From assembly GCF_030013595.1 (NCBI RefSeq), contig NZ_CP122768.1: a stretch of DNA of 64,000 nt, one strand, 5' to 3'. Position 1 is the first letter of the stretch. Every line of letters begins with the position of its first letter. Below are positions 49,818-57,648 of the stretch, one piece after another. Origin of the DNA: Escherichia coli (GTDB lineage: Bacteria > Pseudomonadota > Gammaproteobacteria > Enterobacterales > Enterobacteriaceae). The translations under genes were made by a program, and so were the position numbers. A model generated the notes under the pieces. The model saw only the letters and a program-made list of their open reading frames with translations. It searched no databases and was not told the origin of the DNA.

Positions 49818-50209
49818 GGGTTAATCCTCTTTGACGTATAAATTGCTGCACCAAAGGTGAACAGCGAAAAAAATAAAAATTAAAAAAGTAGCGTTGAGAA
49901 AAGTCTCGCTGACTACAGGAACAGACTATTTTTCGCGACGCGAATTATCAATCTCTTTCTGTAACCAGAATGTAAGAACATGAGCAACCGCACATATTTT
50001 GATGATTTTTGTTACAAGGCTTAAGTTTGCGGTTGAAAGGCTTGCAGAAGAATAAAAACGTGAAATTCCAGCAAGATGAAAGCGTTTACATTTTATTTAA
50101 TTATGATTTGTGATTTTAAATTTATTTTATGAATAAATTGCGAAGCGGAATTAATTCGCGAAGAAAAGCAGAAAAAAACGCCGCAGAGCGCGGCATTTTG
50201 AATTGTTTG

Positions 50210-52131: not shown

Positions 52132-54078
52132 TTACTTTTTGATTTCATACAGCGGTGTTTGACCCGCCATGACATGGCCCTGAGCTTTAATGATCAAGCC
52201 GCTGAAATCGTCGATATTGCTGCAAACCACCGGGCTAATCATCGAACGGGCGTTAGCGTTCAGGTAATCCAGATCCATTTCCAGAATCGGTTGCCCTGCG
52301 CTTACTTGCGCGCCCTCTTCCACCAGACGTTTAAAACCTTTACCTTCCAGCGCTACGGTGTCGATACCCATATGGACGACGATCTCCGCGCCTTTTTCGG
52401 TTTCCAGGCAGAACGCGTGGTTGGTATTGAAGATTTTCACGATTGTCCCTGCGGCTGGTGATACGACGATTTTATCTGTCGGTTTCACCGCCACACCGTC
52501 ACCCACCGCTTTGCTGGCGAATGCTTCGTCAGGAACCTGATCCAGTGCCACAACATCACCGGTAATCGGCGATACCAGCTCCGCGATAGACACCGCGTTT
52601 GGTACAGCCTGCGGTTTTGCTACAGGCGCGGCAGTTGCAGGCGCAGTTTCAGCTGACGCAGCGGCTACCGGACCACGGGCAACAACTTTCTTCATTGCAT
52701 CGCCAATGGATTCCGCTTTCGCGCCAACAATCACCTGAATAGTCTGTTTGTTCAGTTTCACTACCCCAGAAGCACCCAGCCGTTTACACATCGCATCGTT
52801 GACGCGAGCCGAGTCAACCACGGTCAGGCGCAGACGAGTAATACAGGCGTCAATTGCTTTCAGGTTGTCAGTGCCGCCAACCGCAGCAATATAGTTGGTC
52901 GCCAGTTGATTGAGGCCTTCTTCAGTGTTGCTGTTGGCTTCTTCAGTAACGATCTCATCTTCTTTATCTTCACGACCCGGCGTTTTCAGGTTGAACATGC
53001 GGATAACCAAACTGAACACCACGAAGTAGATAGCGAAGAAGACAACACCCATCACCAGCAGCATCCAGACGTTCTGGCTGGCGGCCGGCAGGTTATACAT
53101 CAACGCGTAGTCGATAGCCCCCGCAGAGAAGGAGAAGCCCGCGTGGATACCCAGCAGCGTTGCCACAAACAGGCTGATACCGGTCAGCAGTGCGTGCAGG
53201 AGGTACAGCAGCGGCGCAAGGAACATGAACAGGAATTCCAACGGCTCAGTCACACCGGTCAGGAACGCAGTAACAGCAACAGAAAGCAGCATACCGCCAA
53301 CCATCGGACGACGCTCTTTCGGTGCTGCAAAGTACATCGCCAGCGCCGCACCCGGCAGACCGAACATCATGATCGGGAAGAAGCCGGACATGAACATCCC
53401 CGCGGTGCCGTCACCAGCGTAGAAACGGTTGATGTCGCCGTGGAAAACCGTACCCGCCGCGTTGGTGAATTCACCAATCTGGAACCAGGCGATGGTGTTC
53501 AGCACCTGATGCAGACCGGTTGGGATCAGCAGACGGTTGATGAAACCAAAGATACCGGAACCCAGCGCGCCCGCAGAAACGATCCACTCGCCGCCTGCAT
53601 GGATAGCGTGCTGTACCGGCGGCCAGACGTAACCAAAAATGGCCGCCAGCACCAGGCAGAAGAAGCCGGTGGCAATCGGCACAAAGCGTTTGCCGCCGAA
53701 GAAGCTCAGGAAGTCAGGCAGTTTAATATCGGACCAACGGTTATAGGCTGCGCCACCAACCAGACCGGTAATGATACCCGCCAGTACACCCATGTTAATT
53801 TCTGGGTTGATGGTCACCATCGCTTTGGTTAACACAAAGTAACCTACCGCACCCGCCAGCGCCGCCGCACCTGCGCTGTCTTTCGACCAGCTGGATGCCA
53901 CACCGATGGCGAAGATTAATGCGAGGTTATCAAAAATCGCACCGCCCGCCTGGGCAATAAACGCAACGTTAAGTAAATCTGGCTGACCGAATCGCAGCAA
54001 CAGCGCCGCCACCGGCAGCACCGCGATAGGGAGCTGTAACGCCCTACCGAGTCGCTGGAAAAAACCTAAAATATTCAT
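52132..54078 (-). CDS. nagE: PTS N-acetylglucosamine-specific EIICBA component
   Basis: ORF track 648 aa MNILGFFQRLGRALQLPIAVLPVAALL... Confidence 0.97.
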   Translation of the reverse strand: MNILGFFQRLGRALQLPIAVLPVAALLLRFGQPDLLNVAFIAQAGGAIFDNLALIFAIGVASSWSKDSAGAAALAGAVGYFVLTKAMVTINPEINMGVLAGIITGLVGGAAYNRWSDIKLPDFLSFFGGKRFVPIATGFFCLVLAAIFGYVWPPVQHAIHAGGEWIVSAGALGSGIFGFINRLLIPTGLHQVLNTIAWFQIGEFTNAAGTVFHGDINRFYAGDGTAGMFMSGFFPIMMFGLPGAALAMYFAAPKERRPMVGGMLLSVAVTAFLTGVTEPLEFLFMFLAPLLYLLHALLTGISLFVATLLGIHAGFSFSAGAIDYALMYNLPAASQNVWMLLVMGVVFFAIYFVVFSLVIRMFNLKTPGREDKEDEIVTEEANSNTEEGLNQLATNYIAAVGGTDNLKAIDACITRLRLTVVDSARVNDAMCKRLGASGVVKLNKQTIQVIVGAKAESIGDAMKKVVARGPVAAASAETAPATAAPVAKPQAVPNAVSIAELVSPITGDVVALDQVPDEAFASKAVGDGVAVKPTDKIVVSPAAGTIVKIFNTNHAFCLETEKGAEIVVHMGIDTVALEGKGFKRLVEEGAQVSAGQPILEMDLDYLNANARSMISPVVCSNIDDFSGLIIKAQGHVMAGQTPLYEIKK

Positions 54079-54200
54079 CTTATTCCCCCTACGAGAACCC
54101 TATTTGGCTCGTTTAAAGCCGTATTTTTATTTTGCTGCAAATTGTACTGCCGATGTTCTGTAATCAGATTGTTAGATCATCTGCTACAGAGTGTGTGAAA

Positions 54201-54226
54201 ATTTAATTCGTATCGCAAATTAAACG
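54201..54226. promoter_or_regulatory. putative NagC operator in the nagE-nagB divergent region
   Basis: AT-rich pseudo-palindrome TAATTCGTATCGCAAATTAA adjacent to the CRP site; assignment from memory of nag regulon architecture, not verified. Confidence 0.3.
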
Positions 54227-54235
54227 CGTGTCTTT

Positions 54236-54251
54236 TGTGAGTTTTGTCACC
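54236..54251. promoter_or_regulatory. CRP-binding site between nagE and nagB
   Basis: TGTGAGTTTTGTCACC, close to the TGTGA-N6-TCACA consensus. Confidence 0.55.
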
Positions 54252-54410
54252 AAATATCGTTATCATCACTCCCTTTTACTGGCTAAACCAGAAAACTTAT
54301 TTTATCATTCAAAAAATCAGGTCGGATTGACGCCTGTCTGCGCAAATCCAGGTTACGCTTAAAGATGCCTAATCCGCCAACGGCTTACATTTTACTTATT
54401 GAGGTGAATA

Positions 54411-56419
<2,009 letters not shown>

Positions 56420-56427
56420 GAGAAAGT

Positions 56428-57648
56428 ATGACACCAGGCGGACAAGCTCAGATAGGTAATGTTGATCTCGTAAAACAGCTTAACAGCGCGGCGGTTTATC
56501 GCCTGATTGACCAGTATGGGCCAATCTCGCGGATTCAGATTGCCGAGCAAAGCCAGCTTGCCCCCGCCAGCGTAACCAAAATTACGCGTCAGCTTATCGA
56601 ACGCGGGCTGATTAAAGAAGTTGATCAGCAGGCCTCCACCGGGGGCCGCCGCGCTATCTCTATCGTCACCGAAACCCGCAATTTCCACGCAATCGGCGTA
56701 CGGCTTGGTCGTCACGACGCCACCATCACCCTGTTTGATCTCAGCAGCAAAGTGCTGGCAGAAGAACATTACCCGTTGCCGGAACGTACCCAGCAGACGC
56801 TGGAACATGCCCTGCTGAATGCCATTGCTCAGTTTATTGATAGCTACCAGCGCAAGCTGCGCGAGCTGATCGCCATTTCCGTGATCCTGCCGGGGCTTGT
56901 TGACCCGGACAGCGGCAAAATTCATTACATGCCGCATATTCAGGTGGAAAACTGGGGGCTTGTAGAAGCACTGGAAGAGCGTTTTAAAGTGACCTGTTTT
57001 GTCGGCCACGATATCCGCAGTCTGGCGCTGGCGGAGCACTACTTCGGTGCAAGTCAGGATTGCGAAGACTCCATTTTAGTGCGTGTCCATCGCGGAACCG
57101 GGGCCGGGATTATCTCTAACGGGCGCATTTTTATTGGCCGCAACGGCAACGTCGGTGAAATTGGCCATATCCAGGTCGAACCTCTGGGTGAACGCTGCCA
57201 CTGTGGCAACTTTGGCTGCCTGGAAACTATCGCCGCCAACGCTGCCATTGAACAACGGGTGTTGAATCTGTTAAAGCAGGGCTACCAGAGCCGTGTGCCA
57301 CTGGACGACTGCACCATCAAAACTATCTGCAAAGCCGCGAACAAAGGCGATAGCCTGGCGTCGGAAGTGATTGAGTATGTCGGTCGTCATCTGGGCAAAA
57401 CCATCGCCATTGCTATCAACTTATTTAATCCGCAAAAAATTGTTATTGCCGGTGAGATCACCGAAGCCGATAAAGTGCTGCTCCCTGCTATTGAAAGCTG
57501 CATTAATACCCAGGCGCTGAAGGCGTTTCGTACTAATCTGCCGGTGGTACGTTCTGAGCTGGATCACCGCTCGGCAATCGGCGCTTTTGCGCTGGTAAAA
57601 CGCGCCATGCTCAACGGTATTTTGCTCCAGCATTTGCTGGAAAATTAA
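56428..57648 (+). CDS. nagC: N-acetylglucosamine repressor (ROK family)
   Basis: ORF track 406 aa MTPGGQAQIGNVDLVKQLNSAAVYRLIDQYGPISRIQIAE... Confidence 0.97.
   Translation: MTPGGQAQIGNVDLVKQLNSAAVYRLIDQYGPISRIQIAEQSQLAPASVTKITRQLIERGLIKEVDQQASTGGRRAISIVTETRNFHAIGVRLGRHDATITLFDLSSKVLAEEHYPLPERTQQTLEHALLNAIAQFIDSYQRKLRELIAISVILPGLVDPDSGKIHYMPHIQVENWGLVEALEERFKVTCFVGHDIRSLALAEHYFGASQDCEDSILVRVHRGTGAGIISNGRIFIGRNGNVGEIGHIQVEPLGERCHCGNFGCLETIAANAAIEQRVLNLLKQGYQSRVPLDDCTIKTICKAANKGDSLASEVIEYVGRHLGKTIAIAINLFNPQKIVIAGEITEADKVLLPAIESCINTQALKAFRTNLPVVRSELDHRSAIGAFALVKRAMLNGILLQHLLEN

What the first reader, a model, noticed from the sequence alone, without database searches (positions are those of the whole stretch)
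54079..54410. nagE-nagB divergent control region with CRP site and candidate NagC operators
The 332-bp AT-rich spacer contains TGTGAGTTTTGTCACC (CRP-like) flanked by AT-rich pseudo-palindromes resembling NagC operators, consistent with the known DNA-looping repression of the divergent nag promoters. It is listed for completeness; nothing suggests novelty.
Basis: partly seen in the sequence, partly recalled or inferred. Interest (0 to 1): 0.15.

Follow-up and report, generated by a model that had tools for sequence, protein, structure and literature searches.

The report
Known nagE-nagB divergent control region

Summary
The observation and the interpretation both hold. Window 54079-54410 is the 332-bp, 38% G+C spacer between nagE (minus strand) and nagB (plus strand) of an E. 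coli strain. It differs from K-12 MG1655 at two positions, neither in a motif.

The CRP-like string TGTGAGTTTTGTCACC lies at 54236-54251. The two flanking AT-rich quasi-palindromes are letter-for-letter the published NagC operators: the nagE operator at 54202-54224 and the nagB operator at 54296-54318. Their centres are 94 bp apart.

A NagC matrix built from eight other operators ranks them 2nd and 3rd of 63,978 window positions. Two such hits never occurred together in 2,000 shuffles of the spacer.

Public cap-selected 5'-end data put the nagE start at 54182 and the nagB start at 54316. CRP therefore sits at -61.5 and -72.5, and each operator overlaps its own promoter.

In 57 of 59 orthologous loci (Enterobacterales, Aeromonas, Vibrionaceae) the operator-CRP-operator spacing is kept to within a base pair.

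The mechanism is the known one: a NagC repression loop released by GlcNAc-6-P, with CRP activation. Nothing here is new. Side observation: the membrane domain of NagE comes in two deeply divergent classes that share this control region.

The parts
52132..54078 (-). nagE coding sequence (GlcNAc-specific PTS EIICBA, 648 aa)
   Evidence: ORF; NF007608 equivalog, 1446 bits, 1-648/648
54079..54182 (-). nagE 5' leader (104 nt), from the main transcription start at 54182 to the start codon
   Evidence: Cappable-seq TSS U00096.2 703063 (+) and SMRT-Cappable-seq 703839 (0-based, forward) both map to window 54182 using the mapping. Fold not unusual, z = -1.62.
54190..54195 (-). inferred nagE -10 hexamer CACACT (weak; -13..-8)
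   Evidence: Sequence relative to the mapped TSS. Inference only. The consensus promoter scan does not call it, as expected for an activator-dependent promoter.
54202..54224 (.). NagC operator of nagE (BoxE), centre 54213 = -31 of nagE; A/T at +/-11; contains the inferred nagE -35 TTGCGA (54218-54213)
   Evidence: Identical to the published nagE operator TTTAATTTGCGATACGAATTAAA. Leave-out PWM 20.5 bits, rank 2 of 63,978. Mean conservation 1.62 bits per position over 49 loci.
54236..54251 (.). CRP (CAP) site TGTGAGTTTTGTCACC, centre 54243.5 = -61.5 of nagE and -72.5 (or -71.5) of nagB
   Evidence: Half-sites conserved at 1.89 and 1.83 bits, the 6-bp spacer at only 0.72. Offset from the BoxE centre is 30.5 bp in 55 of 59 loci and 29.5 bp in 2 more. 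nagB and nagE are CRP SELEX targets.
54280..54285 (+). inferred nagB -35 hexamer TGGCTA
   Evidence: 17-bp spacing to TATCAT. Conserved block, 1.34 bits.
54296..54318 (.). NagC operator of nagB (BoxB), centre 54307 = -9 (or -8) of nagB; C at -11 and +11; contains the nagB -10 TATCAT (54303-54308) and the TSS
   Evidence: Identical to the published nagB operator CTTATTTTATCATTCAAAAAATC. Leave-out PWM 14.9 bits, rank 3 of 63,978. 1.52 bits per position.
54316..54410 (+). nagBACD 5' leader (about 95 nt) from the transcription start at 54316 (54315 under the other coordinate convention)
   Evidence: SMRT-Cappable-seq operon b0678|b0677|b0676|b0675, TSS 703706 reverse. Fold not unusual, z = -0.77. 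Not conserved, 0.18 bits.
54411..55211 (+). nagB (glucosamine-6-phosphate deaminase), first gene of nagBACD
56428..57648 (+). nagC, the ROK-family repressor that binds the two operators
   Evidence: NF047937 TransRegNagC equivalog, 719 bits, cut-off 650

Best explanation
The spacer is the divergent nagE / nagBACD control region of E. coli and works as described for K-12.

Without amino sugar, NagC (encoded 2 kb downstream in the same operon) binds the strong operator BoxB, which covers the nagB -10 hexamer and start site. It also binds, cooperatively, the weak operator BoxE, which covers the nagE -35 region. The operator centres are 94 bp apart, about nine helical turns, so the two sites lie on the same face of the helix and the DNA between them is looped. 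This shuts both promoters.

GlcNAc-6-phosphate, made when NagE imports GlcNAc, inactivates NagC DNA binding and opens the loop.

One cAMP-CRP dimer bound inside the loop then activates both weak promoters from class-I-type positions, -61.5 for nagE and about -72 for nagB. From my own knowledge of Plumbridge and Kolb's work, its DNA bend also helps stabilise the repression loop.

Shown here: the identity and position of the sites, the transcription starts, and conservation. Taken from the literature: binding, looping and the inducer. Inferred: the -10 and -35 hexamers.
For: - Gene identities and the spacer are established.
- The region is near-identical to K-12, with the two SNPs outside the motifs.
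- Both operators are identical to the published sequences.
- A PWM trained on 8 other NagC sites ranks them 2nd and 3rd in 64 kb. The only higher hit is the known chiP/ybfM operator, which was in the training set.
- Shuffle controls support non-chance occurrence.
- TT at -6,-5 and AA at +5,+6 are present in both sites. BoxB has C/C at +/-11 and BoxE has T/A, matching the published strong-versus-weak distinction.
- Public Cappable-seq and SMRT-Cappable-seq tables give TSSs at 54182 and 54316. CRP therefore lies at -61.5 and -72.5, BoxE at -31 and BoxB at -9.
- Of 59 orthologous loci with a divergent nagE, 57 keep a box-to-box distance of 93 or 94 bp (94 in 48) and a BoxE-to-CRP offset of 30.5 or 29.5 bp. 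They span Enterobacterales, Aeromonas and Vibrionaceae.
- Information content peaks on exactly these blocks.
- The literature supports looping, the inducer and CRP targeting.
Against: - None of substance.
- No binding experiment exists for this particular strain, and the primary footprinting papers (Plumbridge and Kolb 1991, 1993, 1995, 1998; Plumbridge 2001) are not held in the library. Their details rest on secondary citations and my own knowledge.
- PMC4288165 describes the nagE operator as '-11A,+11T', whereas in the register used here the outer bases read T and A on both strands. The base pairs are A/T either way.
- Shimada et al. mention multiple CRP sites in this spacer. I find only one site with at least 8/10 core matches. 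The only other match, at 7/10, is BoxE itself.
- The simple sigma-70 scan does not call either real promoter.
Confidence: 0.96

Rival explanations
1. Mlc, the NagC paralogue, rather than NagC, is the physiological repressor acting at the nagE-proximal operator, because that operator has the A/T base pairs at +/-11 typical of Mlc sites.
For: BoxE has T/A at +/-11 in the window, and A or T at both positions in all 57 conserved loci. PMC4288165 calls it a hybrid Mlc/NagC site.
Against: The same paper states there is no cross-regulation at physiological protein levels. It also states that nagE is preferentially regulated by NagC when the nagB operator is present. The invariant 94-bp phasing with the C/G-flanked BoxB fits cooperative NagC binding.
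Confidence: 0.02
2. The AT-rich palindromes are chance features of an AT-rich promoter spacer (UP-element-like DNA) with no specific protein partner.
For: The spacer is 38% G+C. AT-rich DNA inflates NagC-type PWM scores, and 1.7% of spacer shuffles give one hit of 14.9 bits or more.
Against: Two such hits arose in 0 of 2,000 shuffles. Both sites are identical to published operators. Both are conserved at 1.5-1.6 bits per position with fixed spacing across three orders, while flanks fall to 0.2-0.6 bits.
Confidence: 0.01
3. The CRP site acts only as a class I activator of the two promoters and has no architectural role in the NagC loop.
For: Its centre lies at -61.5 and about -72, both standard class I positions. 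The fixed 30.5-bp offset to BoxE could simply follow from both elements being tied to the nagE promoter.
Against: From my own knowledge, Plumbridge and Kolb (NAR 1998) reported that moving or removing the CAP site weakens repression. That paper is only cited and is not held. The site is inside the loop in every conserved locus. The data here cannot separate the two roles.
Confidence: 0.1

Closest known systems
E. coli K-12 nagE-nagBACD intergenic control region (BoxE, CAP site, BoxB; Plumbridge and Kolb)
   Same: Same locus. The 332-bp spacer is identical except at 54115 (A vs C) and 54264 (C vs T). Operator sequences, the CRP site, the 94-bp spacing and the transcription starts are all the same.
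   Different: Only the two SNPs, in the nagE leader and between the CRP site and the nagB -35. The strain is not K-12.
Other two-operator NagC loops (chbBCARFG, glmUS, fimB) and the single-site galP and chiP operators
   Same: The same 23-bp quasi-palindrome with TT/AA at +/-5,6. Cooperative binding to two sites by looping is required at nagE-B, chb, glmU and fimB (PMC5401889). The chiP/ybfM operator sits in the same window at 49927-49949.
   Different: At nag the loop encloses two divergent promoters and one CRP site, and NagC represses both. At glmUS NagC activates (PMC2806358).
Mlc operators (ptsG, manXYZ, ptsHI)
   Same: The sequence logo is nearly indistinguishable. BoxE carries the Mlc-like A/T at +/-11.
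   Different: Regulated by NagC in vivo, not Mlc, and induced by GlcNAc-6-P.
Classical repression loops with an internal CRP or architectural protein (gal GalR-HU, deo, ara, lac)
   Same: Two in-phase operators, a loop of about 100 bp, and a DNA-bending protein inside it (own knowledge).
   Different: A different repressor family (ROK rather than LacI/GalR or AraC). One loop controls two divergent promoters.

Membership tests
NagC (ROK-family) operator | 23-bp quasi-palindrome with invariant TT at -6,-5 and AA at +5,+6 from the centre | tested here: met
   Both sites have TT-N9-AA about centres 54213 and 54307. The rule is from PMC4288165.
NagC (ROK-family) operator | Scores as a NagC site with a matrix built from independent known operators | tested here: met
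   20.5 and 14.9 bits, ranks 2 and 3 of 63,978. Two such hits arose in 0 of 2,000 spacer shuffles.
NagC (ROK-family) operator | C or G at +/-11 in high-affinity sites; the nagE operator is the known exception with A/T | tested here: met
   BoxB has C/C and BoxE has T/A. In the 57 conserved orthologues BoxB has C at -11 in 55 and BoxE has A/T at both ends in all 57.
NagC (ROK-family) operator | Identity with experimentally defined operator sequences | tested here: met
   Exact matches to the nagB and nagE entries of FITBAR Table 1
NagC (ROK-family) operator | Physical binding of NagC and release by GlcNAc-6-P | not testable with these tools
   Literature only (PMC5401889 uses the nagE-nagB region as footprint and EMSA positive control)
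NagC repression loop (nagE-B type) | Two operators in helical phase, each overlapping one of two divergent promoters, with the repressor gene present | tested here: met
   94 bp centre to centre, about 9 turns. BoxE is at -31 of nagE and BoxB at -9 of nagB. The spacing is kept at 93 or 94 bp in 57 of 59 loci. nagC is intact.
NagC repression loop (nagE-B type) | Loop formation is needed for repression in vivo | not testable with these tools
   Stated in PMC4288165 and PMC5401889
CRP (CAP) binding site, class I activation | TGTGA-N6-TCACA core | tested here: met
   9 of 10 core matches at 54236-54251. A 9/10 core occurs in 0.9% of spacer shuffles. Half-sites are conserved at 1.8-1.9 bits.
CRP (CAP) binding site, class I activation | Centre near -61.5, -72.5, -82.5 or -92.5 from a transcription start | tested here: met
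   -61.5 from the nagE TSS at 54182. -72.5 from the nagB TSS at 54316, or -71.5 if the TSS is 54315.
CRP (CAP) binding site, class I activation | CRP binding and cAMP-dependent activation | not testable with these tools
   nagB and nagE are listed as known CRP targets recovered by genomic SELEX (PMC3105977)

The most novel reading that the evidence does not exclude
The BoxE-CRP-BoxB module is an ancient cassette whose internal distances are fixed to within a base pair. It has stayed unchanged across Enterobacterales, Aeromonas and Vibrionaceae even where the membrane (IIC) part of nagE beside it was exchanged for a class only about 48% identical. In Enterobacter and Cedecea species pairs, nucleotide homology runs through the whole spacer and 15-22 nt into nagE, then collapses. 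The IIA end of the protein remains about 89% identical. The conserved control region may therefore serve as the upstream homology arm for recombinational swapping of the transporter's membrane domain. The driver might be selection on IIC as an entry receptor for toxins or phages, which is speculation. I found no description of this, but did not search for one specifically.
Probability: 0.15. Interest if true: 0.3.

Novelty: already known. Interest (0 to 1): 0.05.

Why it matters
It matters little as a discovery, because this is one of the classic examples of repression by DNA looping with an internal CRP site. Its value here is as a positive control. A reader working from sequence alone located the CRP site and both operators correctly, and simple matrix scans plus orthologue comparison recover the published architecture to the base pair. 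The comparison also shows how rigidly the 94-bp and 30.5-bp geometry is conserved across gamma-proteobacterial orders, which fits a structural (looping) constraint rather than mere site presence.

Tried and rejected
- **Consensus sigma-70 and terminator scan.** It found neither real promoter. It gave only one plus-strand hit overlapping the nagB start codon and one weak hairpin (54105-54121) antisense to the nagE leader. Both are at chance level.
- **Generic repeat search.** It did not report the operators as palindromes because the arms are too short and imperfect. It gave only chance-level pairs.
- **Rfam at permissive threshold.** The only hit was a yeast snoRNA model at E = 0.5, which is noise. 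There is no riboswitch or sRNA.
- **Folding of both leaders.** z-scores were -0.77 and -1.62, so neither is unusually structured.
- **Small ORFs in the spacer.** None is credible. Most have non-ATG starts, and the single ATG ORF within the spacer (54365-54439) has no Shine-Dalgarno sequence.
- **Second CRP site.** Shimada et al. suggest one, but nothing reaches 8/10 core matches.
- **Primary papers.** Attempts to read the Plumbridge papers by DOI or PMC id failed because they are not held. A literature search for '61.5' was useless.
- **nagE -10 from sequence alone.** My first attempt pointed to TAAATT (54205-54200), giving a start near 54193. The Cappable-seq start at 54182 overruled it.

Full report
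**1. What is at the coordinates**

The ORF list shows a 648-codon ORF on the minus strand ending (start codon) at 54078. A 266-codon ORF on the plus strand starts at 54411. It is followed by ORFs of 382, 406 and 250 codons.

NCBIfam assigns these, each over its full length and far above the curated cut-offs, to NagE (PTS EIICBA-Nag), NagB, NagA, NagC and NagD. The ORF beyond nagE is GlnS. It has 38.3% G+C against 52.1% for the window.

The 701 bp around it occur at 99% identity or more in 5,408 of 5,426 complete E. coli genomes, annotated nagE/nagB. Against K-12 MG1655 the spacer differs at only two positions, 54115 and 54264. Everything established for K-12 therefore applies.

**2. The motifs**

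TGTGAGTTTTGTCACC is at 54236-54251 and matches the CRP core TGTGA-N6-TCACA at 9 of 10 positions. It is the only such match in the window. The pattern is not rare on a 64-kb scale, with about 1.9 matches expected. Only 0.9% of dinucleotide-preserving shuffles of the spacer contain one.

The two AT-rich quasi-palindromes that flank it are letter-for-letter the NagC operators listed for nagE and nagB in Table 1 of the FITBAR paper, compiled from El Qaidi and Plumbridge 2008 and from J. Plumbridge (PMC3098098):
- 54202-54224: TTTAATTCGTATCGCAAATTAAA, which reads TTTAATTTGCGATACGAATTAAA on the minus strand.
- 54296-54318: CTTATTTTATCATTCAAAAAATC.

To avoid circularity I built a symmetrised matrix from the eight other operators in that table. 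The two sites score 20.5 and 14.9 bits, ranks 2 and 3 of 63,978 window positions. Rank 1 is the chiP/ybfM operator at 49927-49949, which was in the training set.

In 2,000 shuffles of the AT-rich spacer, one hit of 14.9 bits or more appears in 1.7%. Two such hits never appear, and a hit of 20.5 bits or more never appears.

Both sites carry the invariant TT/AA at +/-5,6. The nagB site has C at both +/-11 positions, the mark of high-affinity NagC sites. The nagE site has A/T base pairs there, the published peculiarity that makes it weak and Mlc-like (PMC4288165). The operator centres (54213 and 54307) are 94 bp apart.

**3. Promoters**

The consensus promoter scan finds neither promoter, so I used public 5'-end data.

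The Cappable-seq TSS table lists plus-strand starts at U00096.2 703063 and 703084 (PMC4782308). The SMRT-Cappable-seq operon table lists the nagBACD operon starting at 703706 (reverse). It lists nagE starting at 703839, 703640 and 703899 (forward) (PMC6131387).

In that table forward coordinates are 0-based. thrL is given as 147 and araC as 70220, against 70221 in the Cappable-seq GFF. Reverse coordinates appear 1-based, as for leuL at 83735 (the thrL and leuL reference values are my own knowledge).

With the mapping, the main nagE start is window 54182 in both data sets. The nagB start is 54316, or 54315 under the other convention. This gives the following geometry:
- CRP centre at -61.5 for nagE and -72.5 (or -71.5) for nagB.
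- BoxE centred at -31 of nagE, over an inferred -35 TTGCGA. An inferred -10 CACACT lies 17 bp downstream of that hexamer.
- BoxB centred at -9 of nagB, over the -10 TATCAT and the start site.
- An inferred nagB -35, TGGCTA.

The hexamers are inference. The starts are data.

**4. Orthologues**

One scan of the species-representative genome collection with NagB returned 80 loci. Of these, 59 have a divergent nagE within the flank.

In each spacer I took the two best non-overlapping NagC-matrix hits and the best CRP core. In 57 of 59 loci the two NagC hits are 93 or 94 bp apart (94 in 48) and the CRP core is centred 30.5 (in two loci 29.5) bp from the nagE-side box. These loci come from Escherichia, Citrobacter, Enterobacter, Pantoea, Erwinia, Yersinia, Serratia, Pectobacterium, Dickeya, Photorhabdus, Edwardsiella, Aeromonas, Photobacterium, Grimontia, Enterovibrio, Salinivibrio and one Vibrio. 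Bisgaardia and Moritella are the exceptions.

Stacking 49 loci (48 orthologues with the 94-bp spacing plus the window) without gaps gives this mean information content:

| Block | Bits per position |
|---|---|
| BoxE | 1.62 |
| CRP half-sites | 1.89 and 1.83 |
| 6-bp CRP spacer | 0.72 |
| nagB -35 block | 1.34 |
| BoxB | 1.52 |
| Flanks and both leaders | 0.18-0.65 |

That NagC controls nagA, nagB and a PTS transporter as a conserved regulon core in gamma-proteobacteria is already in the comparative-genomics literature (PMC5343134).

**5. Mechanism**

The evidence supports the known model.
- NagC binds BoxB strongly and BoxE weakly. The two bind cooperatively through a loop of about nine turns, which occludes the nagB -10 and start site and the nagE -35.
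- GlcNAc-6-P, the product of NagE-mediated uptake, inactivates NagC (PMC5401889; PMC4288165).
- cAMP-CRP, bound inside the loop, activates both weak promoters. Both genes are CRP targets (PMC3105977).
- From my own knowledge of Plumbridge and Kolb 1998, CRP also helps the loop form.

The primary footprinting papers are not in the library. Binding, looping and the inducer therefore rest on secondary statements.

**6. Other possibilities checked**

No Rfam family matches. Neither leader folds better than shuffles. There is no credible small ORF. There is no second CRP core at 8/10 or better, despite a remark about multiple sites.

The rival readings have little support:
- Mlc as the real repressor of BoxE is contradicted by the literature.
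- Chance AT-rich palindromes are excluded by the shuffles and the conservation.
- CRP as activator only cannot be tested here.

**7. Verdict**

Interest is low.

**8. Noticed on the way**

The gene divergent from nagB comes in two classes. Eleven loci have the E. coli class. Forty-eight have a class only 35-40% identical over the first 120 residues in nearly all cases.

The second class is also a full-length EIICBA NagE of 672-673 residues. Even the partial sequences held in the loci score above the TIGR01998 cut-off in two of the three proteins tested.

Against E. coli NagE it is 48% identical in IIC, 65% in IIB and 89% in IIA.

In Enterobacter (cloacae vs asburiae) and Cedecea species pairs that differ in class, nucleotide homology of 82-88% runs through the whole spacer and 15-22 nt into nagE before collapsing. 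The second class has no megablast match in 5,426 complete E. coli genomes.

This looks like exchange of the membrane-domain part of nagE with the control region left intact. I did not pursue it further.

Noticed in passing
window 52132-54078 (nagE), especially the IIC part ~52970-54057; loci L004, L009, L013, L022 versus L003, L008, L020: NagE occurs in two deeply divergent classes that share the same control region. Against the Enterobacter/Raoultella class the E. coli protein is 48% identical in IIC, 65% in IIB and 89% in IIA. Between Enterobacter and Cedecea species pairs of different class, DNA homology runs through the spacer and 15-22 nt into nagE, then collapses. This suggests cassette-like replacement of the membrane domain.
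   Followed up: partly
L004 (NZ_JAATUR010000059.1, labelled E. coli strain SCPM-O-B-8794): NagB is 100% identical to the window's protein, but nagBAC DNA is only 95% identical. Its nagE is of the other class, which has no megablast match in 5,426 complete E. coli genomes. The record is probably another Escherichia species or is mislabelled.
   Followed up: partly
window 49927-49949 (-) and 50102-50172: There is an exact copy of the published chiP/ybfM proximal NagC operator (GATAATTCGCGTCGCGAAAAATA), the top PWM hit of the window. A cluster of weaker NagC-like hits lies 150-220 bp away in the AT-rich region between chiP and glnS. It might include a second operator.
   Followed up: partly
window 54381 (-), with TAAAAT at 54394-54389; also 54161 (-) and 54122 (-): Public cap-selected 5'-end data list extra nagE-direction starts. 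One lies inside the nagB leader, antisense to it, behind a good -10 hexamer. It would give a ~300-nt nagE leader reading through both operators and the CRP site. Two minor starts lie within the nagE leader.
   Followed up: partly
window 54849, 54968 (inside nagB) and 56157 (inside nagA), + strand: SMRT-Cappable-seq lists internal starts for nagA-nagC and nagC-nagD transcripts (NC_000913.3 703173, 703054 and 701865, reverse). This fits the constitutive internal nagC promoters cited from Plumbridge 1996. The mapping to window coordinates is my arithmetic.
   Followed up: no
window 54391-54413: A weak NagC-like match (TTTACTTATTGAGGTGAATAATG, 11.35 bits, rank 12 in the window) overlaps the nagB ribosome-binding site and start codon. 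It lies beyond the stretch profiled for conservation; the adjacent nagB leader (54319-54383) is unconserved. It is probably chance.
   Followed up: no
L061 (Bisgaardia hudsonensis) and L072 (Moritella sp. PE36): These are the only two of 59 loci with a divergent nagE that lack the 93/94-bp arrangement. In Moritella the best boxes are 126 bp apart, three more helical turns, with a CRP-like core 62.5 bp from the nagE-side box. In Bisgaardia there is no convincing pair.
   Followed up: no
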